Source: a virus (taxonomy: Duplodnaviria; Caudoviricetes). From it: a DNA stretch of 53,167 bases. Each line of letters begins with the position of its first letter. Position 1 is the stretch's first letter. The stretch is from the IMG/VR virus record IMGVR_UViG_3300025120_000073, positions 1-53,167 of that record. One strand, written 5' to 3'. Below are positions 7,970-51,738 of this stretch, one piece after another. The position numbers and the translations under genes are program-made. The notes beneath the pieces were generated by a model, which was not told where the DNA came from, did not search any database, and saw only the letters and a list, made by a program, of their open reading frames with translations.

Positions 7970-8015
7970 TTGCTCTTTCTCCTAACCAAATTAAAATTAA
8001 GAAAGCTCCCTAGAA

Positions 8016-8027
8016 GTTCAATTGAAC
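8016..8027. repeat. dispersed palindrome, copy 2
   Basis: Exact copy, intergenic, upstream of the capsid genes. Confidence 0.95.
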
Positions 8028-8034
8028 TTTTTGG

Positions 8035-9901: not shown

Positions 9902-10102
9902 TTAGCTTTCAATATATCTTTTTTCAATTTCCGATAAATCTTCTTCTATAATTCTAAAAGCTTCGTACTTTCCTGTTAGCTTGACGTAATCTTCTTGCGT
10001 TTTAGCACCGCCCTCAGCAAGAAAAAGTTCAATTGAACTTTTGTATTCAGCTATCTTACCTTTGATTACTAGAATTAATGGATCAGTCACTGGATTTATC
10101 AA
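9902..10102 (-). CDS. small hypothetical protein after the portal gene
   Basis: 66-aa helical ORF overlapping the portal end; contains a palindrome copy encoding SSIE. Confidence 0.7.
   Translation of the reverse strand: MINPVTDPLILVIKGKIAEYKSSIELFLAEGGAKTQEDYVKLTGKYEAFRIIEEDLSEIEKRYIES
10027..10038. repeat. dispersed palindrome, copy 3
   Basis: Exact copy extending to a 20-bp palindrome; in a CDS as SSIE. Confidence 0.95.
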
Positions 10103-14278: not shown

Positions 14279-14497
14279 TGTGAACCTACCCCTTTTTCTA
14301 AAAAACCAAATATATTTCTCAATAGTGATATTGGCACTCAAAAACTAAAGGGGGGGTATTTGAAAGTTTTTAGTAATTGTTTGTGTGGAACACCATGTAT
14401 GTAAGTTGTATGTGCGACCGAGTATATACTATCATGGGGGTAGGTGGGGTCACGACATACTGGTCAGACTAAATGGGTATTGCCATAAATCAATAAA

Positions 14498-14509
14498 GTT
14501 CAATTGAAC
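14498..14509. repeat. dispersed palindrome, copy 4
   Basis: Exact copy at the terS stop codon. Confidence 0.95.
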
Positions 14510-15030
14510 TATTTAATCCCTAGAGCAATCAATTTGTTTTGGATATCTTTTTCTAGCTGTTGCTCATTACGTTCTGTCTTATCCTCAGTTTCTACCCTAT
14601 CGATCCATAGCCCCATAGACTTTCCTAATAACTCAATTGCTCTGACTTGTGTACCGTCAGCTTCACCATCTCGCAGTGCGACTTGTTCCAGTTTTGAAAT
14701 CACACGATCCCTTCGAGAGAGGGCCATCAAGCGGTTATTGCTCTCTATATCACTATAATATCTATCTAAGCTTAGTGACACATTAGGGTTCTTAGCCAAC
14801 CTACACGCTTCTACATGTATGCTTGCATTGCTCATATTACTGGCATCATATGCCAGACGATAAGCATCACTTATATTATTACCATCTATTATGGCTTCAA
14901 TGAATGCCTGTTGTTTATCTGTTACCCCTCTATTGTTCTTAGGGGTTCTTTGTCTACTCTTACCTGTAATCGGTACAACTACGCTAGGCGCTTGGCCTTT
15001 ATCGTGGTTTTGATCTTGATCTTTTGGCAT
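14509..15030 (-). CDS. terS: terminase small subunit
   Basis: VTDKQQAFIEAIIDGNNISDAYRLAY..EACRLAKNPNV HTH and AIELLGKSMGLWIDR; upstream of terL. Confidence 0.8.
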   Translation of the reverse strand: MPKDQDQNHDKGQAPSVVVPITGKSRQRTPKNNRGVTDKQQAFIEAIIDGNNISDAYRLAYDASNMSNASIHVEACRLAKNPNVSLSLDRYYSDIESNNRLMALSRRDRVISKLEQVALRDGEADGTQVRAIELLGKSMGLWIDRVETEDKTERNEQQLEKDIQNKLIALGIK

Positions 15031-17310: not shown

Positions 17311-18375
17311 ATGAGATTATCAGAAGCAAGCATTCTTTCAGAGAATGCATTAATTCACCAATTAGACAATCGCGGTAAGGTCGCGGAGTCTGAAATACTT
17401 GTACCATATTGGATCGGAGCGGCAGGGCTTGGTAAAACCCAAGCGGTTAAGGCATTATCAAAACGCCTTAGCGAAATACGCGGTGTTGATTTTGGCTGTA
17501 ACATTTTTAGTTTAGCTCAATATTCTCCAGAGGATATTGCAGGATGGCTTTTGCCAAACAGCGACAAAACTAAAATGATCAGGATCAAACCTGATTGGAT
17601 GCCCGAAAAAGGTACGCACGGTATACTGTTCTTTGATGAGATACCCCAAGCTATTGTCGCCAACCAAAACGTAGCGGCTCAGATTATCAATGAACACCGT
17701 GTTGGCGATTGGAATATACCCGACACATGGGTTGTTGTTGCCGCAGGTAACAGAGCCTCAGATCGTGCAGGTACAAACCAAATGCCTAACCACCTCAAAG
17801 ACAGGTTGATGTTCTTGCCAGTTGAGGCCAACCATTGGGAATGGATTAGCCATATGATGTCGCGCAAAAGAGGCGAACAGGCTTGTGCTTTTATTGGCTT
17901 CAAGCCTACTGCTTTACATGTAGTCAATCATGATGAAGATGTGAACCCGACACCTAGATCATGGGATAAGGTCTGCACTGCCATGACAATTTACGCAAGC
18001 TTACCATTAGCTCAACGCAGGAATGCTGTAGCAGGATTGGTTGGCGCGTCTGTGGCGGCAGAGTTTTTTGCTTTTCTCGCGGTATATGATGAGATTGGTG
18101 ATGTTGATGACATTATCAAAAACCCTGCATCTGCACCCATCCCTGACCGTCCAGATGTTGTCTTTGCTCTTTGTCAATCACTAGCGTCAAAAGCTAGCGA
18201 CAAAAACATTGGCAACATTATCAAATATATCAATCGACTTGAGGAGGTTGGCATGGGTGCTGAGTATTCTGCTTTCGTTATGAAGACAGCAATACAGGCA
18301 ATACCAAACTACAAGCAGAACCCAGACATAAGAGATTGGGTTTTGAATAGTGGTGGCAAAGAGTTGCTACTCTAA
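17311..18375 (+). CDS. MoxR-type AAA+ ATPase
   Basis: Walker A GAAGLGKT, Walker B ILFFDE, VAAGN sensor, LKDRL, TPRSW. Confidence 0.9.
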   Translation: MRLSEASILSENALIHQLDNRGKVAESEILVPYWIGAAGLGKTQAVKALSKRLSEIRGVDFGCNIFSLAQYSPEDIAGWLLPNSDKTKMIRIKPDWMPEKGTHGILFFDEIPQAIVANQNVAAQIINEHRVGDWNIPDTWVVVAAGNRASDRAGTNQMPNHLKDRLMFLPVEANHWEWISHMMSRKRGEQACAFIGFKPTALHVVNHDEDVNPTPRSWDKVCTAMTIYASLPLAQRRNAVAGLVGASVAAEFFAFLAVYDEIGDVDDIIKNPASAPIPDRPDVVFALCQSLASKASDKNIGNIIKYINRLEEVGMGAEYSAFVMKTAIQAIPNYKQNPDIRDWVLNSGGKELLL

Positions 18376-18384
18376 AAAACAAGC

Positions 18385-18419
18385 AGATACCTCGCGTCAG
18401 CGCGAGGTATCTTTTTTTT
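18385..18419 (+). terminator. intrinsic terminator between the AAA and VWA genes
   Basis: AGATACCTCGCG-TCAG-CGCGAGGTATCT plus a T-run. Confidence 0.85.
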
Positions 18420-18424
18420 AATTT

Positions 18425-18436
18425 GTTCAATTGAAC
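18425..18436. repeat. dispersed palindrome, copy 5
   Basis: Exact copy between a terminator and the VWA gene RBS. Confidence 0.95.
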
Positions 18437-18455
18437 TTTTTTTTAGTGAGGTATT

Positions 18456-19610
18456 ATGGAACCCAAATTATTAGTTGCCCGTGCTGTTACAAAGCTTTTG
18501 CTTCAGTATCCATTCTATGGGTCACTGGCCTTAGCACTGCGAATGATGCAAGATGACACTATCGACACCATGTGTACTGATGGTAAATCAATCAAGTGGA
18601 GTGCTAACTTTGTTGCTACTCTTGATCCCTTACAAGTGATGTTTGTTATTACTCATGAGGTGTTACATGTTGCGTTCAAGCATATGTTCAGGATAGGCAA
18701 GCGCAATCACAAGCTGTGGAACATTGCCTGTGACTTTGCAATCAATGCAATACTTATCAAAATGTTTGGCATCGAAGCTATGCCAGAGGGTGGGCTTTAC
18801 GATCCTCAATATGAGGGTATGTCAGCCGAAAAGATTTATGATCTAATCAAAGACATGTCTGATGATGAAATAGACAAAATCACTGGCGGTCGAGATCAAT
18901 GGCAGATGGGTGATTTTCAAGAACCTAAAGATGGCAATGGTGATGCGATGCAGGAAGCAGAGCTTGACCAGTTATCAGATGATATCGATCAAAAGGTTAT
19001 CATAGCCGCTGACACTGCCAGAGCCGCAGGAAAGCTACCATCTGAAGTGCAGGAGCTTGTTGATATTATGAAGCGGTCACAAGTTGACTTAGAGACAGTA
19101 GTCTCTCGCTTTGTTGGTGGAGATGTTCCTGCTGACTTCAGCTATAGGAAAATCAACAGGCGCTCTTATATGATGCTCGACATGGTGTCACCAACGATTG
19201 CCAAGCATTCTGTCGGTCACGTTATTATCAAGATTGACAGTAGCGCATCGGTCAGAAAAGAAGAGCTTCAATATTTCCTTGGCATCTGCAATCAGTTTGT
19301 CGAAGAGAAGCAACCAGAATCTGTTACTATCATTACTTGGGATACAAAGGTTCGAACCGTCACAACCTACGATAAAGGTCAAGCAATACCTGACCTAAAG
19401 CTTACAGGTCGAGGCGGCACACTAATCAGCCCAGTGTTCCAATATGTAGAAGACAACCAGTTGCCATGTGACTATTCAATTGTTTTGTCTGATATGTGCA
19501 TCTTTGACTACCCTGAGCGTCCTGCTAATTACCCAGTGCTTTGGGTAAGCCCAGATATGAGATCGAAACCTGCCCCTTGGGGCAAGTCAACTTGGATGAA
19601 GGCCGCTTAA
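18456..19610 (+). CDS. putative metallopeptidase + VWA domain protein (DUF2201-like)
   Basis: TMCTDG, HEVLHVAFKH (HExxH), WNIACDFAIN; MIDAS-like IDSSAS, GRGGT, LSD. Confidence 0.9.
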   Translation: MEPKLLVARAVTKLLLQYPFYGSLALALRMMQDDTIDTMCTDGKSIKWSANFVATLDPLQVMFVITHEVLHVAFKHMFRIGKRNHKLWNIACDFAINAILIKMFGIEAMPEGGLYDPQYEGMSAEKIYDLIKDMSDDEIDKITGGRDQWQMGDFQEPKDGNGDAMQEAELDQLSDDIDQKVIIAADTARAAGKLPSEVQELVDIMKRSQVDLETVVSRFVGGDVPADFSYRKINRRSYMMLDMVSPTIAKHSVGHVIIKIDSSASVRKEELQYFLGICNQFVEEKQPESVTIITWDTKVRTVTTYDKGQAIPDLKLTGRGGTLISPVFQYVEDNQLPCDYSIVLSDMCIFDYPERPANYPVLWVSPDMRSKPAPWGKSTWMKAA

Positions 19611-22311: not shown

Positions 22312-22527
22312 ATGGGATATGAGCAGTTAACCATGTTTCAAGCCAGTCAATTGAAATGGTTAAAAAGACAGGTGGATAATCTCGCGGATGAAAGCAGACG
22401 AAGTGATGCTAGGCCGCGAATAGAACAGGAGCTTTTCGCCGCGCGTGAGGAGCTTGATGATTATGTTGAAAATTTAAAGCAATCAGGTATTGCAATAGAA
22501 CATGGGAGAAGATCATGGCTATATTAG
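22312..22527 (+). CDS. small coiled-coil hypothetical protein
   Basis: 71 aa in a packed operon. Confidence 0.7.
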   Translation: MGYEQLTMFQASQLKWLKRQVDNLADESRRSDARPRIEQELFAAREELDDYVENLKQSGIAIEHGRRSWLY

Positions 22528-22847
22528 CTAAAGCAAAAGGCACGGTTTATGCCAGTGAAGAAGCAAGAATAAAACTAGAGGTTTTGTACAGACAAGGTTG
22601 GATGGAACAAAATAAAAAAGACGCGGCTTTAAGGCCCGAATTAAGAATAAGGTCTCATTTCAAATCTGATAAAGTAATAAAAAGATCTCAGTCACCAAAA
22701 AAACCTCAATTACCAAAACAGGCAAAAATAGTTAATAACATGTTGTCTGAAGGAAAATCACCTAGGCAGGTAGCTAAATCTTTATATGAAAATATAAAGT
22801 ATATCAGTAGCTTAATAACTAAATATAACCTTCCTACAAGAAAATAA
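22515..22847 (+). CDS. basic protein with possible C-terminal HTH
   Basis: IVNNMLSEGKSPRQVAKSL resembles an HTH; last gene of the early operon. Confidence 0.6.
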   Translation: MAILAKAKGTVYASEEARIKLEVLYRQGWMEQNKKDAALRPELRIRSHFKSDKVIKRSQSPKKPQLPKQAKIVNNMLSEGKSPRQVAKSLYENIKYISSLITKYNLPTRK

Positions 22848-22893
22848 AGCGCACCTACGCAAATTAAACGAATCATGTGTTATGTTGTAAATA

Positions 22894-22999
22894 AGATCCG
22901 TTTTTTGCAGGAGATAAATTATGCCTCCACCATAATTATGCGTAAGCTATGAGTGCGCTGAGGGCGAACTGAACATGTGAAATGACGAACAGTCCTTAA
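22894..22999 (+). other. RBS followed by a chain of five minigenes (MPPP, MRKL, MSALRAN, M, MTNSP)
   Basis: AGGAG at 22909-22913; ORFs 22921-22935, 22938-22952, 22949-22972, 22975-22980, 22982-22999. Confidence 0.5.
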
Positions 23000-23041
23000 C
23001 CATAGCAGTAAGAGCCTGAACCTTTACTGGTGATCTTACAC

Positions 23042-23070
23042 TAGGGGAGAAGTATCAGCCTTCTCCCCTA
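23042..23070 (+). terminator. strong hairpin ending the plus-strand transcript
   Basis: TAGGGGAGAAG-TATCAGC-CTTCTCCCCTA, 11-bp perfect stem; weak U-tract. Confidence 0.7.
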
Positions 23071-23080
23071 ATTTATAAAA

Positions 23081-23092
23081 GTTCAATTGAAC
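23081..23092. repeat. dispersed palindrome, copy 7
   Basis: Exact copy between two convergent terminators. Confidence 0.95.
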
Positions 23093-23121
23093 AAAAAAAA
23101 GAGGTGGCGCGAAGCCACCTC
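23093..23121 (-). terminator. intrinsic terminator (minus strand)
   Basis: GAGGTGGC-TTCGC-GCCACCTC plus T8. Confidence 0.85.
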
Positions 23122-23186
23122 AGATCCGTTCAGAGCAGGATTATCGTCAGTTCACAACAAGCGGAAGTGAAAAACAAATGTCCTGA
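23093..23186 (-). ncRNA. candidate ~90-nt antisense small RNA
   Basis: Lies between its own promoter (23192-23220) and terminator; 5' GUCAG/CUGAC stem; carries UCCUGC-N4-AACGGAUCU complementary to 22894-22912. Confidence 0.55.
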
Positions 23187-23191
23187 CACAA

Positions 23192-23220
23192 GATCTAGCA
23201 CTCGCACATATTAACGTCAA
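23192..23220 (-). promoter_or_regulatory. sigma70-type promoter for the candidate sRNA
   Basis: TTGACG-N17-TAGATC with an extended -10 TG. Confidence 0.6.
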
Positions 23221-23369
23221 ACACTTTTGTTTAGTTTGTCAGACAAATCTTTTATAAGATTTAGAGTGGTTCTTATATCTAGACGTATAACCTCTACTTC
23301 TTTTCCTTTTGAATAAACGTGTAAATTCACACACTTATCACCCTCTCTTGCAGTAATGTACTTGCTCAT
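23217..23369 (-). CDS. 50-aa hypothetical protein (not in the ORF track)
   Basis: MSKYITAREGDKCVNLHVYSKGKEVEVIRLDIRTTLNLIKDLSDKLNKSV; ATGA overlap with the helicase stop. Confidence 0.65.
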   Translation of the reverse strand: MSKYITAREGDKCVNLHVYSKGKEVEVIRLDIRTTLNLIKDLSDKLNKSV

Positions 23370-25138
23370 AAGTCAATATCCAAATCTAAATCATGTGCTA
23401 TTGACGCAACACTTGTCGCGTAAGGTAGGTTGTATGTGCTTGTGGGGCTATCAAAAGATAGCTCAGTATCACCCTGCTTTCCCGCCCAAGAGAAGCGGCA
23501 TTTCCACACAATTATTTTTGATAAAGAAGAATGTACAGGATCAGGTCTGTGTACCGTAAGGCCAACATCAGCCTTAGCAAACCAAGCGGCTGACCCAGAT
23601 ATGTCATACCCTTTCGGGGCAGGTACTTCTCCATTACTATCACGCATCATCTTTGTTGGGTGTGCCACAAACCATAGATGTATCCCGTGCGCTTGTGCAA
23701 AAACTCTTAATCGTGTCAAAACATCTGATACCCATTCTGTTTCAGAAGTATCTGATTTATCCTTCTGAATATAATTATAAGGGTCAATGATTGCTCCCCT
23801 TATTCCATGCCGTAAAACGGCAACCTTCAATCGCTCGATAATGCTATCAACAGATGATAAAGTTCCATCAGCTTGATAGAGAAAAGAAAAGTTCGATTGA
23901 ACAAATTGCTTTCCCCCCTCCATTTCTTCTTTTGTCATTCTTGGTGTTTTACCATCAAAGAAAGGCAGTCGTAAAAACTTACTTATCAGCTTGGCAATGT
24001 GTATTCGTGGCTCGTTTTCGAAACTGCAAATTGCAAACTTCCATCCCTCACGCTCCGCCAAGTTTACCATTAATTGATCTATAAATTCTGATTTGCCAGA
24101 GCTTGGGTGACCAGTCACTACCGTAAGTTGACCCTCAACAATTGAATACAATTCGTCTACATTTTTGTAGCCAGTTGATACACCTGAACCCACCCCTTTC
24201 TCATAGATCTCATCAACGTCCTCAAAGAAATGCTTCGCGTCAAAAAGACCTGCAACAGGCCAAGGTGACGCCCCAGTAATCAGGCTATCCACACCGTCTT
24301 TACCGTGCTTCAATAAGACATCGTTGGCGTCCTTACAGCCCTCTGGATAATGAATTTTAAAAACTTTATCCTTACCAATGCGCCTTGCAATTTCTTCAGC
24401 CATAGCTTGACCTGCATCATCAGCGTCAGTTGCGATTATAATTTTTCCTGCCTCATCAATTTGCTTCTTCGCGTTCCATAAGAACTTGAATTTATTATCT
24501 TCTTTCGGATCAACTTGATTTTCGGCAACCTTCATTACTGCACCATTTGGAACAGAAACAGAGCTTGTATACCCTGATTCGATAAGTGCCAACGCATCCA
24601 TTTCTCCTTCGCAAATTATAAGATCTTTGCCTTTCTCAACGTTATCAATGTTAAAAAAGGTTTGAGGCGCACCGTTGCAGGAAAAACCTTTTCCTTCAAT
24701 CGATCTAATTTTTTGAGCGTAATCTTCACCCTTATTTGTGTATGGAAAAAGTATACAATCAACTTCTGCTTTAGCAGATTGTATATAATTTTTAGCGTAT
24801 TTTAGATTTACTTTTTTGGCGGTCTCTTCCGAGATGCCCCTGTGACGCAGAAAGCTTATCGCGTTCTCGCCAAGTGGAGATGTCTCAATTTTTTTTGCAA
24901 CGGACACTACTTCTACCCTTCTCTGAGCTTTGATTTGTGGTAACTCATCACGCAAAGGAACAATGCCGTTCATACCGCAGTGCCAACAATGGTACAGCGC
25001 CTTATCGCCATCTATCCTAAATGATAAAGTCTTTTCGTTTTTCTTTTTGCGGCTGTGACCACAGCTTGGGCATGATATTTTATATTGACCTTGACCTAAC
25101 CTGTTAGCTTCACCGCGCAGTTCTTGTTCTACTTGCAC
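23366..25138 (-). CDS. Twinkle/T7 gp4-like DNA primase-helicase
   Basis: Zn finger CPSC..CWHC; TOPRIM CEGEMD and DADDAG; KDAND; Walker A GHPSSGKS; IIDPYN, VAHPTK, YDISGSA. GTG start at 25138 preferred (AGGA RBS). Confidence 0.92.
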   Translation of the reverse strand: MQVEQELRGEANRLGQGQYKISCPSCGHSRKKKNEKTLSFRIDGDKALYHCWHCGMNGIVPLRDELPQIKAQRRVEVVSVAKKIETSPLGENAISFLRHRGISEETAKKVNLKYAKNYIQSAKAEVDCILFPYTNKGEDYAQKIRSIEGKGFSCNGAPQTFFNIDNVEKGKDLIICEGEMDALALIESGYTSSVSVPNGAVMKVAENQVDPKEDNKFKFLWNAKKQIDEAGKIIIATDADDAGQAMAEEIARRIGKDKVFKIHYPEGCKDANDVLLKHGKDGVDSLITGASPWPVAGLFDAKHFFEDVDEIYEKGVGSGVSTGYKNVDELYSIVEGQLTVVTGHPSSGKSEFIDQLMVNLAEREGWKFAICSFENEPRIHIAKLISKFLRLPFFDGKTPRMTKEEMEGGKQFVQSNFSFLYQADGTLSSVDSIIERLKVAVLRHGIRGAIIDPYNYIQKDKSDTSETEWVSDVLTRLRVFAQAHGIHLWFVAHPTKMMRDSNGEVPAPKGYDISGSAAWFAKADVGLTVHRPDPVHSSLSKIIVWKCRFSWAGKQGDTELSFDSPTSTYNLPYATSVASIAHDLDLDIDL

Positions 25139-25210
25139 GTTATTTCCTACTCTGATCCGTCTAGCATAGATTTCAGAGTGCCAGTCAGTCAAGCCACTAA
25201 ATTTAGTGGT

Positions 25211-29541: not shown

Positions 29542-29550
29542 ACCAAAAAA

Positions 29551-29562
29551 GTTCAATTGAAC
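29551..29562. repeat. dispersed palindrome, copy 9
   Basis: Exact copy; supplies the TGA stop of the giant gene. Confidence 0.95.
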
Positions 29563-32500
29563 TCTTTTAGCAAAACATTGGCTCTTTTAGTTAGTTTTTG
29601 TTTTGCTTTATCTAATCTGTCTAGTAACTCTTTTTTCTTTTCGTCAGTAAGAGTTCTGCTATCCCTAACATTATTTATTTGACGAGAGATCTTACGCCTT
29701 TGATTTTCTATCTGTCTAATAATACCTATAAATCGTATTTCATCTGCATAATCAGATCTAATTTTGGCTACTGCCTCTGAACTACCTGATTCAGATGCGG
29801 CCTTAAGTTCGTCCTTGGCTATAAGTATTTTGTCTCTTTTCTCTAGGTAGTCACCAAGGTCTTCTCTTGGAGAAACACTGCTGTATATTTTTCTAGTAAA
29901 CGGTATAGATCGATACAGTTCTTCCTGTAGTCCATCACCAGAAAGTTTGGTTGGCAACTCTACCGTTCTCTGTGCGAAGCGTCCGATACCACCAGTTATA
30001 TATTCAAACCAAAACTCTAGAACATCAGGAGATACATCTACAAGACCACTGCTTGCCGATGATCCTCCTGTTAAAGAGTTTACATTATCAGCAATCCATT
30101 TAGCAGAGGGTGATGTCGTAGACCAATATAGTTGAGAAGAAGGAGTTCTATCGCCCGGAAAGCCTTCTTTAAATACTGGTTTTCCTGTAAAATCTTCATT
30201 ACTTATTATGTCTATAAATGGGTCAGCTATTGTAGGAGCAACAGCATTATCTATGCCGTAATCCCAGATACCACCTATTGGGCTAAGAGTATCAATGGTT
30301 GTGCCAACTATAGAGTTACCTGCACCTTTTAGATCTGTGCCGCCTCTCGCAAGTTGGCTCATAGCTCTGCCAACATTATGAGCCATATTTAATCCGTATG
30401 GCATTGGGATAGATATGTATCCTCTTTCAGAGAAAGGGTTCATAATAATAAAATTATGCTCTAGCACATACTCAGGTATTTTATCATATGTTAGCTTACC
30501 ATCTTCGCCCTCATCTGAAAGAAGGCTGTTAAGCTGATCTTGCAATACACCTGCCGCTATAATGCCTAACCAAATCTGTTGTACTTTCTTTGATCGAGTG
30601 GCAGCATTTAAAAGTGCAAATGAACCTTGTAGAGATGCATTGTAAAATAAGTACCAAGCATTCATTAGTGATCTGTACTCACCACCTTTAGAGAAGTTAA
30701 CAGTGACACTTCCTGCAGCTTGAGCTGCACGTTCTCTGTTATACCCCTTATCTAACAAAGCTTTATAGGTTGCGACACGAACACCATTCTCAACGATAGT
30801 GTTGTAGTCTTCCATAAACTGTAGAAGTGATTTTCCTTTGCCTAAGAATTTTTGTTTAACAATTCCAAACTTACCCTTTTGACCTGCTTCGCCAATATCT
30901 CCTATAATACCTCTTAAATTGTTCATCTGATCAGCGATTGTGTCCATTTGGTTGGTAGCGTTTTTACCACCTGCTTCCACAAAATCTTCGTATATCTTTG
31001 ACCATTCTAAATTAGATTCAGGATCAGTTTTAGACTTTGCAAAAATTGGGGTTGATCGTATAGATTTTTCAATTCCTCCAAGAGCAGGTCTGACACCTTT
31101 TAGTATAGCCTTTGTCATACCTTTTTCTTCGTACTGATTTACGTTTACACCTGCTGTACTAAGGTCTCGTAAAAAGTTGCTAACAACAAACTCTGGGTTG
31201 TATGATGTGTTAATGTTTGAAAGGTATCTGTTTACCTTCAACATACCCCTGTTAATTATATTCATACTAGCAGAGCCAAGACCACTGCTTCCCTTCATAG
31301 CTTTAGCTATTTTTTCGTCTTCGAACCTAACGTATACATCAGCACCGTTTTCTTTAACTGTCATGATCATAGGATCTTGAGCGGCATTAAAGTCAGGGCT
31401 TTCTTTTGTTACTGGCCTACCGTCAGACATGACGGTTCTTCTTTGAGTTGGGATACGATCTAATATTTTAGCATAAACACCAGTTTTCTCAGTATCTGCC
31501 CGCAGAAGTTTTAGGAAAGATTGACCAACTAAATTTTTCTCTGATTTAACAACTGAGTTCTGGTTTTGAGCTATCGTTGTAGCAAAAATGTCTGTGGCGT
31601 ATTTATACCGACCAAGGGCCGTTGGGTCTTGCCTACCTTTTCCCCCAAAAGATCCACCAAGAGAAGCACCAAGTCCTATGTCTTGCTCGTTCTCTGGGTC
31701 AAAAACACCCCGAAGTGGGACATAATTCTGGTAATTTGTAAATTCTATAAACTCTTTTGGAATTAAACCTGAATCAATTCTAACTTTGTTTGTATCTTTA
31801 ATTATGCTTTTTACAGCAGTGCCGAAATTAGACACCGTTGTTTTATTTTCTGCATTGAGACTGTTGAACCAATCTAATATTGCATCTGCCTCACGATCAG
31901 ACATTGCAGACCCTTCAGGATTATTAGAGTCTTTGTTGGCTCGAATGTATGCGTTTCTTTCTTTTGCGTGACTGGCATATAAATAAATATCTCCCAGCGC
32001 TAGAACTTTGTTTTTTGAGCTTTCTATAGCTTGTGAGACAAAACCTTTACCATTAGCAGCGCTATCAGAAATTCTTTGTAAATTATTAATTTCTGCATCT
32101 GTTACATTTAACTGGTTTAGTGCGTCAGTGGCATTCTTATAAATGCCTTTCTCTCTCTTGAGTAATTCATTTGTAGTTTTACGGTGATACAATTCCTCTT
32201 TTAGGTAAGTATCCATAGCATCAACAATAGTAAGGCCTTGTTCTTTTAGCTCTTGTATCATTCTGCCTACGGGCAGGAAGCTATCTTGAAACCTTCTAAG
32301 TACTTCGTCAGCGGCCTTCTGCGCCCTGTCTGCAGGTAATGCAATCCTGAATGCTTTTCCAATAAAATCTGCTGATCGAGCATAGTTTTGATAATACTGT
32401 TTTTCTTGTATTTGATTTGGCAAACTAGCAGGGTTTAAGCTGTATTGAACTTTACCATTTCTAATAGCCCTGTCTTCTGGTTGTATGTTTGCGTAGAAGG

Positions 32501-35500
32501 TTTTTACCTCAAAAGCACCATTAGGAGCCTCTCTGTCTTTAACTAGAACCAATGTTAAAGGTGGAGATACCTCTGGTGTGTTTCGTGTCCATTGTAATAC
32601 AGCAGTGGGTCTTCCGTTATCTATCTCGGTAGAAAGCTCAACTCCCTCTGGATCGCTTTTAAATCCCTGACGTTTAAATTTCTCAAGGATGTCTATAATT
32701 GCTTTTTGAACTGGTCTTGGGTACTTACTATAGTTGGAGTATCTCTTAAGCTCTCCTTCGTGTCTTCTATCTAAAATGTGCCTAAGCCCAGTGCCAACTC
32801 CTATTCCAGATACTTCTGTATTTTCCCCTGCTCGAAGAAACACTGGTTTTTTATTTATAAATCCATGAGCATTAGATCTTATATCATCGGGATCGAGATC
32901 AGGTCTCTTCATAATTGTCTTAGGCTCTATGTTACCTAAAGAAAAAGATGTAGATTCAACAGCTTGAGTATCTGATGTAAGGTCTTCAATTATTTGTGCT
33001 TGTTGTTCAGTAAAAGCGGAAGGTTCAATTGAACTTTCTTCTTTTGCTACTGCAGGATCAATGTCTTTTGTAATATTTGTATCAGCAAAATTTATTATCT
33101 TATCTGGTGAAAAATCACTTTCAACTTCTTCTGCACCATTAAAGTATTTAAGTTCTGCTCTTATACTTGGAACATCAAACTCTGAACCAACAGCAACTCT
33201 TGTATTACCTTCTATTATATAAGGCTGTCCTCTGTGATTAACTCCAACCACGATGGCACTACCACCGTACTGACCATCTGCTTGTTCAGGATCAAATCCT
33301 TCTTTAGAAACTTTTTCTCTAAGAGCTTGATACCTTGCATCTGATCCAGATCTAACCTCATCATTTGCTCCAGTTAGAGTACGAAGAAAAGATGTTTTTA
33401 TAAATAAAGGTTTTTTCTCAAAATCCATTCCCATAACAGCAGTTATTGGGCCAGTTAAAAGTTTTCCAACAGCACCATCAGGATCTCCTGCAGCAGCTTC
33501 TTCTGCTATTTTTTGTTTTCTTAAAATATATTCTTCGTTACCATCTCGAACTGATGGATTGTCTTGTCTGTAGCCAAACTTTTCACGAGCTACTATAAAT
33601 CCTTCTCTGTCTGCTGAGGTGAGCCTTGATCCTGTTGTTGCTTCGGAGCCGAGGCTGTATCTTCTGTCGAGGTCTGAGTTCCCTCTTCTAGAGGCGTCCT
33701 TGCTTTTTCCAGTCCTCTCATCGCTTCTAAGAACTGAGCCATTGGATTTTGCATCTTCATACTCCCTTGCTAATTTATCTACAGAGCCTCTGTCTATTTC
33801 ATCAACCCTTTCAAACCAAGGGATGTCGGCTCTTGACGTTACTTTAAAATTACCTTGTTTAAATATACCTGTTTTAGAATTTTTTCTACTAGCGTCTTTA
33901 GACATAACACCAGTAAAATCTTTAAATGTTTGAGGTGTCATGTAAACCACATCACCATCTGACAAAGGATATTCTACAACAGTGGCGTTTGATCCTTTTA
34001 GGTATGTCATGTTTGATGAGAAAGTATCTGTCTTACCTTCAGTGACCCTAGTTCCTACAGTCTTTCTGTCTATGATTGCTTTCAAGGAGCCGTGATTAAC
34101 AACCTGCTCTCCTTCAATCACCCAAGTCTCCCAGTGGAACCTGCCTAGGGAAGCATCATTTGGTCTTCCAACTAATTCATAGGCTTTATTAACATTCTTA
34201 CGCATACCATTTTCAAGCATACGAGTAACAAGAATACCTTTTGGGCCTCTAAATATTCCGTTAAGACCTTCACCATTTGGCCCAATGCCATCATAAATAT
34301 TAGCTCCACCGTATCTGCCATCATCCCATAGGTGTCTGCCTTGTATTCTGTCCATCACAAGAACATCATCTTTACCTGCAACAAGAAGAATAAAGGATAA
34401 TACTTTATTATCTATTCCTGCGCCTTCTGTGTTTGAAAGAAATGTTTCTCTTATATCAGACGCTAAAACATTCTGATCTACCATTTGTTCATGAACTAAA
34501 TCAAGAGTTGTTCTGTTTGTGTTCGGAATCATTTGTGACATTGCAGAAACTAATTTAGCTGCTGCGTTTACGTTCATAGTAACTTGTTTTCCGGGTGAAC
34601 CTTCAGGAATTGCCGTGGAAACTTCAAGCATCCATCGATCAAGATCATCATCCGTCAAAGGTTCACGAACAGCTTTCTCTAACAATGGATGAGCTTGATC
34701 AATTACATCTATGTATGCTGACTCTTGTTGAACTGGCCCTGCGCCTCTTGAAAGTATTCCCCAGATAAATAAATCCAAGGTCATTCTAGGCGTAGCGTTA
34801 CCGCTGTTATATATATTTTGTAAATCTTTTACATGACCAAAGCCTTCATCCACACCCTTTCTTAACTCTGGCGTAAGAGCTTTAAGCTTCTCAGCCATAG
34901 CTTCGGGTGAAGAACTATACTGTATAGCAACAAGGGGTGGAGCAGGAATATATTCACCACCGAAAGCATCTTGCATTGCGTCCATCCAGTTTTCTACAGA
35001 ATCTGTAGCGTTTGGATGTTGCTCTAAAATTTGTTCAATTGAACTATTATTTCTTTCAGCATTACCTCTGTTGTACTTTTGCGTAATCTGTATGGTTTCT
35101 GGTCTGCCCGAACCCTCTATCAACAATTCATGCGGTAACTTATGCGCTCTAGAGCCATCTGGAGCAAACGGAAGCTTGGGAGTGAAGTTTTTAAGTGAGA
35201 AAGCTAACGCCTCAGACTCAACGTCAGCTTCTGGGTCTCCAAAATCTCTATTTAAAATCATTTGGAAAGGCTTCTTCTCAGATGAGATGATGCCTCTAGC
35301 CCCTATGTTTCCGCTTCTGATATTATCAAATATATCCTCTACACTAGATATACCTACATCGTTATTGCTTTTGACTATACTGACAAAGAAATCCTTGATG
35401 CGCTGCATAAGTGTTCGAGGCTTGCCAGATAGTTTGATTTTATTATCCGCGTAATCTCTAAACAGCTCTGCCACTGACTCTTCTTCGATAGTGGCCTCAG

Positions 35501-42619: not shown

Positions 42620-42634
42620 TTAAATCTCCAAAAA

Positions 42635-42646
42635 GTTCAATTGAAC
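42635..42646. repeat. dispersed palindrome, copy 13
   Basis: Exact copy just upstream of the GGAG RBS of the ejection cluster. Confidence 0.95.
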
Positions 42647-42678
42647 TTTAACATTTTATTACATTTTATACTATAGTA

Positions 42679-51700: not shown

Positions 51701-51718
51701 GTTACTCTCCTATAAAAA

Positions 51719-51730
51719 GTTCAATTGAAC
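51719..51730. repeat. dispersed palindrome, copy 14
   Basis: Exact copy just upstream of the AGGAG RBS of the tail fibre gene. Confidence 0.95.
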
Positions 51731-51738
51731 TTATTTTA

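What the first reader, a model, noticed from the sequence alone, without database searches (positions are those of the whole stretch)
22878..23070. Chain of five back-to-back minigenes behind a strong RBS, beginning with Met-Pro-Pro-Pro-stop
Seen: an extended -10-like TGTTATGTT (22878-22886), SD AGGAG (22909-22913), then ATG CCT CCA CCA TAA. It is followed by MRKL* (22938), MSALRAN* (22949, ATGA overlap), M* (22975) and MTNSP* (22982); each ATG lies within 2 nt of, or overlaps, the previous stop. An 11-bp hairpin closes the unit. The region can also fold (GCTATG/CATAGC, CAGTAA/TTACTG, GTAAG/CTTAC). Known: PPP stalls ribosomes and requires EF-P, Pro-stop impairs termination, and lambda bar minigenes are toxic through peptidyl-tRNA drop-off. 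Inference: an mRNA whose activity is ribosome or tRNA sequestration (host shut-off, dormancy, addiction) rather than a protein product.
Basis: partly seen in the sequence, partly recalled or inferred. Interest (0 to 1): 0.8.

Follow-up and report, generated by a model that had tools for sequence, protein, structure and literature searches.

The report
Phage small RNA gene with mini-ORF leader
The "chain of five minigenes" lies inside a small structured non-coding RNA gene that many marine phages share; only the first mini-ORF (Met-X-Pro-Pro-stop behind a ribosome-binding site) looks like a real translated signal, and the other four appear to be by-products of the RNA's own sequence.

Summary
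A chain of five coupled ATG/stop pairs arose in 1 of 5000 dinucleotide shuffles. Comparison changes the reading. Window 22940-23042 (+) is one copy of a ~100-nt, three-helix RNA found in 72 places (54 distinct sequences) in marine viral and metagenome contigs. Of its base-pair cells, 99.2% are paired, and 8 of 14 pairs show compensatory changes. Fifty of 59 distinct copies are followed by a hairpin plus T-run. No Rfam 15 family matches. Minigenes 2-5 lie inside this RNA. They have no RBS, their frames and lengths are not conserved, and minigenes 4 and 5 exist only in the window's lineage. The extended -10, the AGGAG and the first minigene form an optional 5' module, present in 5 of 54 distinct copies. 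In that module all 15 signal positions (SD, ATG, Pro-codon positions 1-2, stop) are invariant, while 8 of 12 other positions vary. The peptide reads MPPP, MQPP or MRPP. The nearest relative has lost the whole module but keeps the RNA. The RNA's function is unknown. My best guess is a stable phage RNA whose leader parks a slow ribosome at its 5' end. Ribosome or tRNA sequestration by a five-gene array is not supported.

The parts
22870..22886 (+). Conserved promoter block ending in an extended -10 (TG at 22878-22879, hexamer TATGTT at 22881-22886)
   Evidence: 20 of 24 positions at 22870-22893 are invariant in the window plus 4 L092-type sequences, against 5 of 22 at 22848-22869. The hexamer reads TATGTT, TATGCT or TATAGT, keeping T1, A2 and T6 and the TG. 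L111 keeps this block directly before the core. The promoter scan did not list it because that scan demands a -35.
22894..22939 (+). Predicted 46-nt leader. The transcription start near 22894 is inferred, not mapped.
   Evidence: The start is placed 7-8 nt after the -10 (inference). One RNA-library contig begins at 22887 (X15); it is a contig only, so this is a weak hint. The leader is predicted to be largely unstructured in 5 variants.
22909..22913 (+). Shine-Dalgarno AGGAG, 7 nt before the ATG
   Evidence: Invariant in 5 leader variants, while 5 of the 7 spacer positions vary. AGGAG-N5-9-ATG occurs 15 times in the window, and 10 of those open a frame of at least 50 codons.
22921..22935 (+). 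Mini-ORF 1: MPPP-stop (M-X-P-P-stop in relatives)
   Evidence: The relatives read MQPP and MRPP. ATG, positions 1-2 of Pro codons 3 and 4, and TAA are invariant; codon 2 and the wobble of codon 4 vary. The stop ends 10 nt before helix P1.
22938..22999 (+). Minigenes 2-5 (22938-22952, 22949-22972, 22975-22980, 22982-22999): by-product ORFs inside the RNA
   Evidence: None has an SD. Frames and lengths are not conserved. Their positions fall in P1, P2 and the P2 loop.
22940..23042 (+). Core structured RNA. P1 is 22946-22954 with 22999-23006 (A22952 bulged). P2 is 22960-22965 with 22992-22997. P3 is 23008-23013 with 23034-23039.
   Evidence: Covariance model R1 scores it 91 bits, E 1.4e-17. The family has 72 hits and 54 distinct sequences. 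99.2% of pair cells are paired, and 3 P1 pairs and 5 of 6 P3 pairs show double-sided changes. P2 forms a hairpin of different sequence in each of 14 variants.
23042..23070 (+). Terminator-like hairpin: 11 bp, 7-nt loop, weak T-run after it
   Evidence: Folding. The only difference from the closest relative within it is in the loop, at 23054. 50 of 59 distinct family copies have a hairpin ending within 3 nt of a run of at least 3 T. The window's own T-run is too weak for the terminator scan.
23079..23094 (.). Palindrome AAGTTCAATTGAAC between the two convergent hairpins. It is a genome-wide repeat and not part of the RNA.
   Evidence: 36 strand-matches at up to 2 mismatches, against 0.96 expected.
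23101..23121 (-). Intrinsic terminator of the convergent minus-strand operon (primase-helicase 23366-25192 and a 50-aa ORF)
   Evidence: Terminator scan: 8 pairs followed by T8. Pfam DnaB_C and Toprim on the 608-aa protein.

Best explanation
The region is a small non-coding RNA gene at the end of a rightward operon, in a convergent gap of an uncultured marine phage. The phage's TerL is 52-60% identical to those of Pelagibacter phages HTVC027P and HTVC023P and related records.

Its core (22940-23042) belongs to a family of ~100-nt RNAs that I could not find under any name. The family has a long irregular hairpin (P1-P2) with fixed letters around an internal loop, a second hairpin (P3) with fixed inner letters, and then a terminator-like hairpin.

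In most family members the RNA follows an upstream gene directly, in a 3'-UTR position. In the window's lineage it has gained its own extended -10 promoter and a 46-nt leader. That leader carries a strong RBS and a four-codon ORF, M-X-P-P-stop.

Shown: the RNA structure, its family, the optional nature of the leader, and the codon-like conservation of mini-ORF 1.

Inferred: the RNA is the product and acts as a stable structured RNA that binds a protein or pairs with another RNA. The target is unknown. A ribosome that initiates on the leader is slow, both at consecutive prolines and at release after proline. It therefore sits about 10 nt from P1, shielding the 5' end or delaying P1 folding.

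Minigenes 2-5 are side-effects of ATG- and stop-rich fixed letters of the RNA.
For: Structure and family. RNAalifold and pair counts on 14 and then 54 distinct sequences give 99.2% of cells paired and a covariation score of 0.465, against 0.202 in shuffles (0 of 500 reach it). Slid controls pair only 23-47% of cells. The P1 middle triplet covaries (CAT/ATG 31, CGT/ACG 12, TGT/ACA 2, CAA/TTG 2). P2 stems differ in every variant.

Strand. 18 G-U and 11 U-G cells in P3 would be mismatches on the other strand. The T-run follows on the same strand.

Not coding. ORF lengths run from 7 to more than 42 codons. P2 loop lengths differ by 1-2 nt between near-identical copies.

Cassette behaviour. The element is present in L048 and L053 but absent from the siblings L059, L051 and L049 at the same spot between two terminators. 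Flanking genes differ: 23 downstream and 16 upstream clusters.

Leader. 15 of 15 signal positions are invariant against 4 of 12 others (Fisher p = 0.0002, classes chosen post hoc). The -10 pattern is conserved.

Expression hint. Contigs from 4 RNA libraries of 3 studies cover the unit. In 3 of the 4 the cover lies only within 22770-23225 of the 1-kb stretch laid.
Against: No strand-specific reads, mapped 5' or 3' ends, or ribosome footprints exist; one search gave contigs only, and DNA carry-over in RNA libraries is possible. One contig (X15) runs through both terminators to 23140.

The window's own T-run after the hairpin is weak.

The leader comes from only two deep lineages plus minor variants, so the Fisher test overstates independence.

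The leader is dispensable in nature: it is deleted in L007, the SD and ORF are missing in L111, and it is absent from 49 of 54 distinct cores.

No target, partner or phenotype is known, so the parking and shielding role is pure inference.

The P1 end pairs and most fixed letters were fixed by my search patterns, an ascertainment bias.
Confidence: 0.7

Rival explanations
1. The core is not a free-standing trans-acting RNA. It is a cis-acting 3'-end element of the upstream operon, serving as an mRNA 3' stabiliser or a termination insulator at convergent junctions. The leader module is then a secondary acquisition of no special function.
For: In most members the element starts 10-34 nt after the stop of an upstream ORF, with no room for a promoter. 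32 of 59 distinct copies face a convergent gene, which is TerL in the GC-rich subgroup and primase-helicase here. L007 keeps the RNA without any promoter. The X17 RNA-library contig runs from the upstream ORFs into the element and stops at 23064.
Against: A plain terminator hairpin would serve the same purpose, and it would not explain about 35 fixed letters and three covarying helices. 23 of 59 copies have a same-strand gene downstream. The window's lineage carries a conserved dedicated promoter.
Confidence: 0.3
2. One reading: the transcript is a minigene array whose activity is sequestration of ribosomes or tRNA (peptidyl-tRNA drop-off, Pro-Pro stalling), giving host shut-off or addiction.
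For: Mini-ORF 1 has what toxic minigenes need: a strong SD, 4 codons and a stop, with conservation of exactly those signals. The chain is rare in shuffles. Minigenes of 3-8 codons inhibit translation more the shorter they are (PMC2490762, passages read).
Against: Four of the five ORFs lack an RBS and are not conserved as ORFs. The ATG of minigene 3 is buried in P1. The closest relative has deleted mini-ORF 1. 49 of 54 distinct family cores have no such leader. From recall: bar toxicity is seen only in Pth-defective hosts.
Confidence: 0.07
3. No translation takes place at all. The AGGAG and the CCACC letters are conserved for RNA reasons, for example an SD-like 5' stabiliser that binds 30S subunits without translation, or a pairing partner. 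MPPP is then a coincidence.
For: About 5 of 15 AGGAG-N5-9-ATG sites in the window are not gene starts. SD-like 5' stabilisers are known in Bacillus (STAB-SD; search listing only). There are only two deep leader lineages.
Against: The ATG, the TAA and the exact 3-codon distance between them are all kept, while codon 2 changes CCT/CAA/CGA and codon 4 changes only at the wobble position. I found no conserved partner for CCACC in the core, by eye.
Confidence: 0.2
4. The region is a decayed longer protein-coding ORF.
For: In 10 of 17 variants the frame from the P1 ATG reaches the fixed CCATAGCAG letters in the same frame (TIAV...). In L048, L089 and L106 it runs 41 codons or more.
Against: P2 lengths of 26-53 nt fall in all three phases: 5 of 10 distinct lengths are multiples of 3. 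All 3 differences between L089 and L106 are non-synonymous, by my reading of the two peptides printed. There is no SD before that ATG. Changes are compensatory in stems rather than at wobble positions. The ends of the frames differ.
Confidence: 0.03
5. The conserved block is a DNA-level site, such as a homing-endonuclease target or recombination site, and not an RNA.
For: HNH or GIY-YIG genes lie next to the element in at least 12 loci: the L169 type in 7, L120, the L124 type in 2, L103 and L166. The element is present or absent between close relatives.
Against: Helices are kept through compensatory changes, with many G-U pairs on one strand only. The orientation relative to the T-run is fixed. 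Homing endonucleases tend to sit beside conserved genes (recalled), so adjacency fits an RNA gene as well.
Confidence: 0.05

Closest known systems
Lambda bar minigenes and synthetic toxic minigenes
   Same: A strong SD, an ORF of a few codons and a stop, on a phage transcript that yields no useful protein. Shorter minigenes inhibit more (PMC2490762, passages read; the bar papers appear only in its reference list).
   Different: Only one of the five ORFs qualifies. It ends in Pro-Pro-stop and is fused to a structured RNA. The closest relative has deleted it. Toxicity was not tested.
Proline-codon leader ORFs that sense EF-P or proline (mgtP of Salmonella mgtCBR)
   Same: A short leader ORF with consecutive Pro codons lies next to RNA structure (PMC5299641 and PMC6460261: search listing and start of abstracts only).
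   Different: There is no regulated downstream gene here; the unit ends in a hairpin facing a convergent terminator. The alternative pairing is not conserved.
Ribosome-dependent 5' stabilisers (STAB-SD, hbs mRNA, erm leader stalling)
   Same: A ribosome bound at a strong SD near the 5' end protects the RNA downstream (PMC5737220: search listing and start of abstract; erm is recalled).
   Different: Those cases come from Gram-positive mRNAs. Here the protected body would be a non-coding RNA of a phage of marine bacteria. This was not tested.
Phage morons, 3'-UTR-derived small RNAs, and mobile regulatory cassettes of T4-type phages (recalled)
   Same: A promoter-to-terminator unit that is present or absent between close relatives. 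The RNA sits at the 3' end of an operon and shares a terminator with it.
   Different: The cargo is a covarying three-helix RNA found across very different phage backbones, often next to homing endonuclease genes.
Catalogue of 8,495 candidate structured RNAs from IMG/VR 3 (DNAVirus_X; PMC10690425)
   Same: The same data source and the same kind of object: intergenic, covarying, and 1,241 with Rho-independent terminators (passages read).
   Different: No function or mini-ORF leader is described in the passages I read.

Membership tests
Toxic minigene (lambda bar type) | Strong SD at the proper distance before the start codon | tested here: met
   Met for minigene 1 only: AGGAG, then 7 nt, then ATG. 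Minigenes 2-5 have no SD.
Toxic minigene (lambda bar type) | ORF of about 2-8 codons closed by a stop | tested here: met
   The five ORFs have 4, 4, 7, 1 and 5 sense codons.
   This holds for minigene 1 in 5 of 54 distinct cores. It is deleted in the nearest relative, and minigenes 3-5 are not kept as such.
Toxic minigene (lambda bar type) | Growth inhibition through peptidyl-tRNA build-up, relieved by Pth or tRNA | not testable with these tools
   This needs expression in pth(ts) and wild-type hosts.
Small non-coding RNA gene with intrinsic terminator | Secondary structure kept by compensatory changes | tested here: met
   8 of 14 pairs show double-sided changes and 99.2% of cells are paired, with shuffle and slide controls.
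Small non-coding RNA gene with intrinsic terminator | No conserved reading frame | tested here: met
Small non-coding RNA gene with intrinsic terminator | Hairpin plus U-run at the 3' end | tested here: inconclusive
   50 of 59 distinct copies qualify. In the window itself there is an 11-bp hairpin but a weak T-run, which the terminator scan did not call.
Small non-coding RNA gene with intrinsic terminator | Own promoter and a discrete transcript | tested here: inconclusive
   An extended -10 is conserved in the window's subgroup only. RNA-library contigs cover the unit but give neither strand nor ends.
Ribosome-stalling leader peptide / attenuator | Short ORF with a stall-prone motif | tested here: met
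   M-X-P-P-stop (PPP in the window). The stalling itself is inferred from general knowledge.
Ribosome-stalling leader peptide / attenuator | A downstream gene under its control | tested here: not met
   No plus-strand ORF of at least 30 aa lies between 22848 and the convergent terminator, apart from a 36-aa GTG frame at 23104-23214 beyond both hairpins.
Riboswitch / cis-regulatory leader | The same gene family downstream in most members | tested here: not met
   23 downstream clusters among 79 loci, and 32 of 59 copies face a convergent gene.
Any Rfam 15 family | Score at or above the gathering threshold | tested here: not met
   0 matches in the window. In 22800-23260 only chance-level hits, E 0.38 to 3. 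0 matches in 11 loci holding diverse members. ARAGORN found nothing.

The most novel reading that the evidence does not exclude
The M-X-P-P-stop mini-ORF is a working device and not a passenger. In this reading the phage fuses a ribosome-arresting four-codon gene to a widely shared phage RNA. A long-lived ribosome (slow fMet-Pro-Pro bond formation, slow release after Pro) then either gates the folding and lifetime of the RNA according to the host's translation state (EF-P, tRNA-Pro, release factor), or itself drains peptidyl-tRNA(Pro) and ribosomes. In very small marine cells, which by recall hold only hundreds of ribosomes, that drain could matter. Separately, the core RNA would be a new, widespread phage RNA with a dedicated protein partner. 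That would explain its fixed internal-loop letters and why homing endonucleases settle next to it.
Probability: 0.13. Interest if true: 0.8.

Novelty: new variant of a known kind. Interest (0 to 1): 0.55.

Why it matters
It turns an eye-catching but mostly accidental pattern into two testable objects.

The first is a structured RNA family that I found in no named collection. It has 54 distinct sequences, is not in Rfam 15, occurs across unrelated marine phage backbones, and often lies beside homing endonucleases and at convergent gene junctions. RNAs kept this widely by phages usually do something for infection, and none of this shape has a known role.

The second is a natural fusion of a conserved M-X-P-P-stop mini-ORF to a non-coding RNA. 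If the ribosome on it controls the RNA's stability or folding, that would be a simple, portable way of coupling an RNA's activity to the host's translational state. It would also be a natural counterpart of the laboratory minigene effect.

If neither holds, the result still shows that dense ATG/stop chains can arise from the fixed letters of an RNA.

Tried and rejected
Nucleotide search of 22500-23400 against 50,697 phage records gave no match.

Model R1 found nothing (0 of 4) in the four nearest complete phage records by TerL: HTVC027P, 023Pt_psg01, DSL-LC04 and HTVC023P. The tool notes that an empty answer without a positive control shows little.

Among the 80 loci kept for helicase relatives, only the L007 contig, L048 and L053 hold the element.

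The exact-anchor pattern gave 1 hit in 185,579 species genomes, in a Trinickia contig (L093). It has no flanking likeness and R1 does not match it, so I treat it as chance. L113, L126, L130, L134 and L136 are likewise pattern-only hits that R1 does not match; I dropped them from all counts.

The promoter-plus-SD pattern found only L092 in viral contigs.

A scan for SD plus a short ORF ending in Pro-Pro-stop over 2,582,370 nt (both strands, 175 sources) gave 12 hits. Ten are the family's leaders and the window, and two are unrelated (L066, L168).

MAFFT could not align P2, so P2 rests on single-sequence folds and is not part of the pair counts. In those folds z-scores ran from +0.02 to -3.25, and 9 of the 14 were weaker than -2.

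I looked by eye for pairing of the leader's CCACC or AGGAG with the core or the terminator and found nothing conserved.

I considered likeness to hammerhead, K-turn or box C/D motifs, put RNA and phi29 pRNA from memory only. None was tested beyond the Rfam scans, and none is claimed.

The fixed GGTGAT letters in P3 are, by recall, complementary to the 3' tail of 16S rRNA. They appear mostly paired within P3 and no start codon follows, so I dropped the idea.

PHROGs and Pfam gave no function for ORF 22515-22847 or its neighbours.

RNA-library cover: parts of the 1-kb stretch without contigs (22570-22671 in all four runs, most of 22400-22770 in three) are not evidence of silence.

Supplementary files of PMC10690425 are closed, so I could not check whether the family is already listed there. 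"Not described" therefore rests only on Rfam and one full-text search.
Full report
SETTING. The window is an IMG/VR virus record of 53,167 bases, linear, estimated 89% complete. The finding lies in the gap 22848-23216. On one side is a rightward run of small ORFs ending with a 110-aa ORF (22515-22847, +). On the other is a leftward operon ending with a 50-aa ORF and a T7-gp4-like primase-helicase (23366-25192, -; Pfam DnaB_C, Toprim). The large terminase is 52-60% identical to those of Pelagibacter phages HTVC027P and HTVC023P, phage 023Pt_psg01 and phage DSL-LC04. Runs holding the stretch are marine.

THE OBSERVATION. These are the TGTTATGTT, the AGGAG seven bases before ATG CCT CCA CCA TAA, four further tiny ORFs each starting within 2 nt of or overlapping the previous stop, and an 11-bp hairpin at 23042-23070. 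With criteria written after the fact, a chain of five or more arose in 1 of 5000 dinucleotide shuffles of 22848-23042. It is also the only chain of four or more on either strand of the window. So the pattern is real and unusual. What produces it is a separate question.

THE NEAREST RELATIVE SPLITS THE UNIT IN TWO. One viral contig (L007, L045 and L088 are the same record) has a 99% identical helicase and a 65% identical copy of the 110-aa ORF. It lacks about 78 nt, window 22855-22932. That stretch holds the extended -10, the AGGAG and all but the last three bases (the stop codon) of the MPPP mini-ORF. From 22933 to 23053 the two are identical. The few differences further on fall in hairpin loops, in an A-run and at two single sites. 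An RNA-library contig of this deleted form exists as well (X17).

THE CORE IS A MEMBER OF A LARGE STRUCTURED-RNA FAMILY. More distant helicase relatives showed a homologous element of about 145 nt. It is inserted between the two convergent terminators in L048 and L053 but absent from their siblings L059, L051 and L049.

A pattern built from two fixed blocks found 5 viral contigs and 22 metagenome contigs. It also found one bacterial genome hit that I regard as chance. A pattern leaving the middle of helix P1 free found 66 viral stretches, 61 of them new.

A covariance model built from the first 14 distinct cores (A2, R1) matched 72 places full-length. Its E-values ran from 2e-18 to 7e-6, and it rejected the pattern-only hits.

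On the 54 distinct sequences, 99.2% of 756 pair cells are standard pairs. All three free pairs of P1 and five of six pairs of P3 show changes on both sides. The covariation score is 0.465 against 0.202 in shuffles (0 of 500 reach it), and slid registers pair only 23-47%. That alignment was fitted to the model, which favours the structure. The earlier MAFFT alignment gave the same picture for P3: 84 of 84 cells paired and 5 of 6 pairs with double changes.

P2 could not be aligned. It folds as a hairpin abutting the fixed AACC block in all 14 variants, with stems of different sequence. G-U and U-G cells in P3 (29 in two pairs) and the T-run on the same strand fix the orientation as plus. Fifty of 59 distinct copies are followed by a hairpin and at least three T.

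No Rfam 15 family matches the window, the gap at a permissive threshold, or 11 loci with diverse members. ARAGORN finds nothing.

WHAT THIS DOES TO MINIGENES 2-5. They lie within the core. The stop of minigene 2 and the ATG of minigene 3 are letters of the P1 5' arm. Minigene 3 ends, and minigenes 4 and 5 lie, within P2, mostly in its loop. None has an SD.

Minigene 2 exists only where ATGCG precedes the core. The frame opened by the P1 ATG runs 7, 8, 12, 20, 22, 24, 25, 41 or more than 42 codons in 17 variants. Minigenes 4 and 5 occur only in the window and L007. Across the family that triplet is ATG in 43, GTG in 10 and AAG in 1 of 54 distinct cores, always compensated in the 3' arm. Loop lengths differ by one or two bases between near-identical copies.

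A decayed or live protein gene is therefore unlikely. The chain is best read as a consequence of ATG- and stop-rich fixed letters plus lineage-specific loop sequence.

WHAT SURVIVES: THE 5' MODULE. Six of the 17 distinct variants of the window's subfamily carry the leader: the window with L100, then L104, L092, L101, L108 and L109. That is 5 of 54 distinct cores.

The block 22870-22893 is invariant at 20 of 24 positions, against 5 of 22 just upstream. The TG and the T, A and T of the hexamer are kept while its middle varies: TATGTT, TATGCT, TATAGT. L111 has this block placed 8 nt before the core, with no SD or mini-ORF. This supports the block as the promoter and puts the RNA's 5' end close to the fixed CGTAAGC.

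In the 27-nt block from SD to stop, all 15 signal positions are invariant. These are AGGAG, ATG, the first two letters of Pro codons 3 and 4, and TAA. Eight of the 12 other positions vary, so the peptides read MPPP, MQPP and MRPP. Fisher p is 0.0002, but the classes were chosen post hoc and there are effectively two deep lineages.

AGGAG-N5-9-ATG occurs 15 times in the window, and 10 of those sites open a frame of at least 50 codons. The phage therefore uses such sites as gene starts. The leader is predicted to be largely open in five variants, while the core folds identically behind it. The stop codon ends 10 nt (11 in the L092 type) before P1.

EXPRESSION. Contigs from four RNA libraries of three studies lie on the unit. 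X15 covers 22887-23140 at 100% identity. X16 covers 22770-22956 and 23075-23225. X18 covers 22844-23026. X17 carries the deleted form up to 23064, plus a separate contig from 23077. These show presence in RNA libraries only. They give neither strand nor ends, and DNA carry-over is possible. Two studies have contigs that break between the two hairpins, which is a weak hint of transcript ends.

CONTEXT OF THE FAMILY. Flanking genes are not conserved, with 23 downstream and 16 upstream clusters, so a riboswitch-like cis leader is unlikely.

The element usually begins 10-34 nt after an upstream stop codon. Recurrent upstream genes are the 110-aa HTH-like ORF (15 loci), a winged-helix HTH_39 protein (15 loci, gap always 10 nt) and a phrog_5931 protein.

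Thirty-two of 59 copies face a convergent gene. In a GC-rich subgroup that gene is the large terminase.

At least 12 loci have an HNH or GIY-YIG homing endonuclease gene next to the element. I read that as endonucleases settling beside a conserved target. This is an inference.

MECHANISM: WHAT IS SHOWN AND WHAT IS GUESSED. Shown: a conserved, covarying RNA with a 3' hairpin; cassette-like presence or absence; an optional promoter-plus-leader module whose SD, ATG, Pro-Pro and stop are kept.

Inferred, in decreasing confidence:
(a) The RNA itself is the product.
(b) Ribosomes initiate on the leader.
(c) The ribosome dwells there, because consecutive prolines slow peptide-bond formation and need EF-P, and because release after proline is slow. 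Both points are general knowledge; abstracts were seen and the rest is recalled. It sits next to P1 and shields the 5' end or delays folding, as ribosomes do on some Gram-positive mRNAs (abstract seen).
(d) The core binds a protein or pairs with a target. Nothing here identifies either.

COMPARISON AND NOVELTY. The single first ORF resembles a bar-type minigene in form (PMC2490762, passages read). It fails the conservation test as part of a chain, and its toxicity is untested. It resembles proline-codon leader ORFs but has no gene to regulate.

The core is a new family with respect to Rfam 15. One full-text search for such an RNA near homing endonucleases gave nothing specific.

I therefore file the whole as a new variant of a known kind: a phage small-RNA gene, here with a conserved arrest-prone mini-ORF as leader.

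VERDICT. Observation confirmed. Interpretation partly supported: an RNA product, a real promoter and a real first mini-ORF hold up, while a five-gene sequestration array does not. Interest 0.55.

Noticed in passing
window 23079-23094 and about 17 other sites (e.g. 1471-1486, 8014-8029, 10025-10040, 14496-14511, 18423-18438, 29549-29564, 42633-42648, 51717-51732): The 14-16-nt palindrome AAGTTCAATTGAAC(TT) gives 36 strand-matches at up to 2 mismatches, against 0.96 expected. About 11-12 of roughly 18 sites fall in gaps between ORFs of at least 90 aa (compare). It also recurs in related contigs. It may be an operator of a phage DNA-binding protein or an RNA hairpin; its function is unknown.
   Followed up: partly
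L169:700-1410, L120:1425-2414, L124:6000-6287, L103:7075-7938, L166:1466-2050: HNH (one with NUMOD3) and GIY-YIG homing endonuclease genes lie directly beside copies of the RNA element in at least 12 loci.
   Followed up: partly
L066 around 1933 (minus strand): A second, unrelated SD plus ATG CCA CCG TAA (Met-Pro-Pro-stop) is directly followed by the ATG of a longer ORF. It may be a coupling leader or chance.
   Followed up: no
L120-L179 (GC-rich subgroup), about 30 nt before the core: An extra hairpin lies upstream of the fixed CCGTAAGC. Its stem reads GGGCGC/GCGCCC, GGGTG/CACCC or GGGGGC/GCCCCC, and in one subgroup it overlaps the stop codon of the upstream winged-helix gene. It is absent from the window's copy.
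   Followed up: no
window 29553-38300 (-): A 2,915-aa ORF with a C-terminal LPD38 domain (large polyvalent protein). It holds three internal copies of the palindrome.
   Followed up: no
window 17311-19610 (+) and L139:794-4213: A MoxR-like AAA ATPase followed by a VWA/DUF2201 metallopeptidase-like gene lies a few kb upstream of the RNA in the window. A comparable AAA_5 plus VWA pair faces the RNA in L139.
   Followed up: no
window 22917-22924 and 22934-22941: AATTATGC occurs twice, once around the ATG of mini-ORF 1 and once just before the core. This suggests the leader arose by a local duplication.
   Followed up: no
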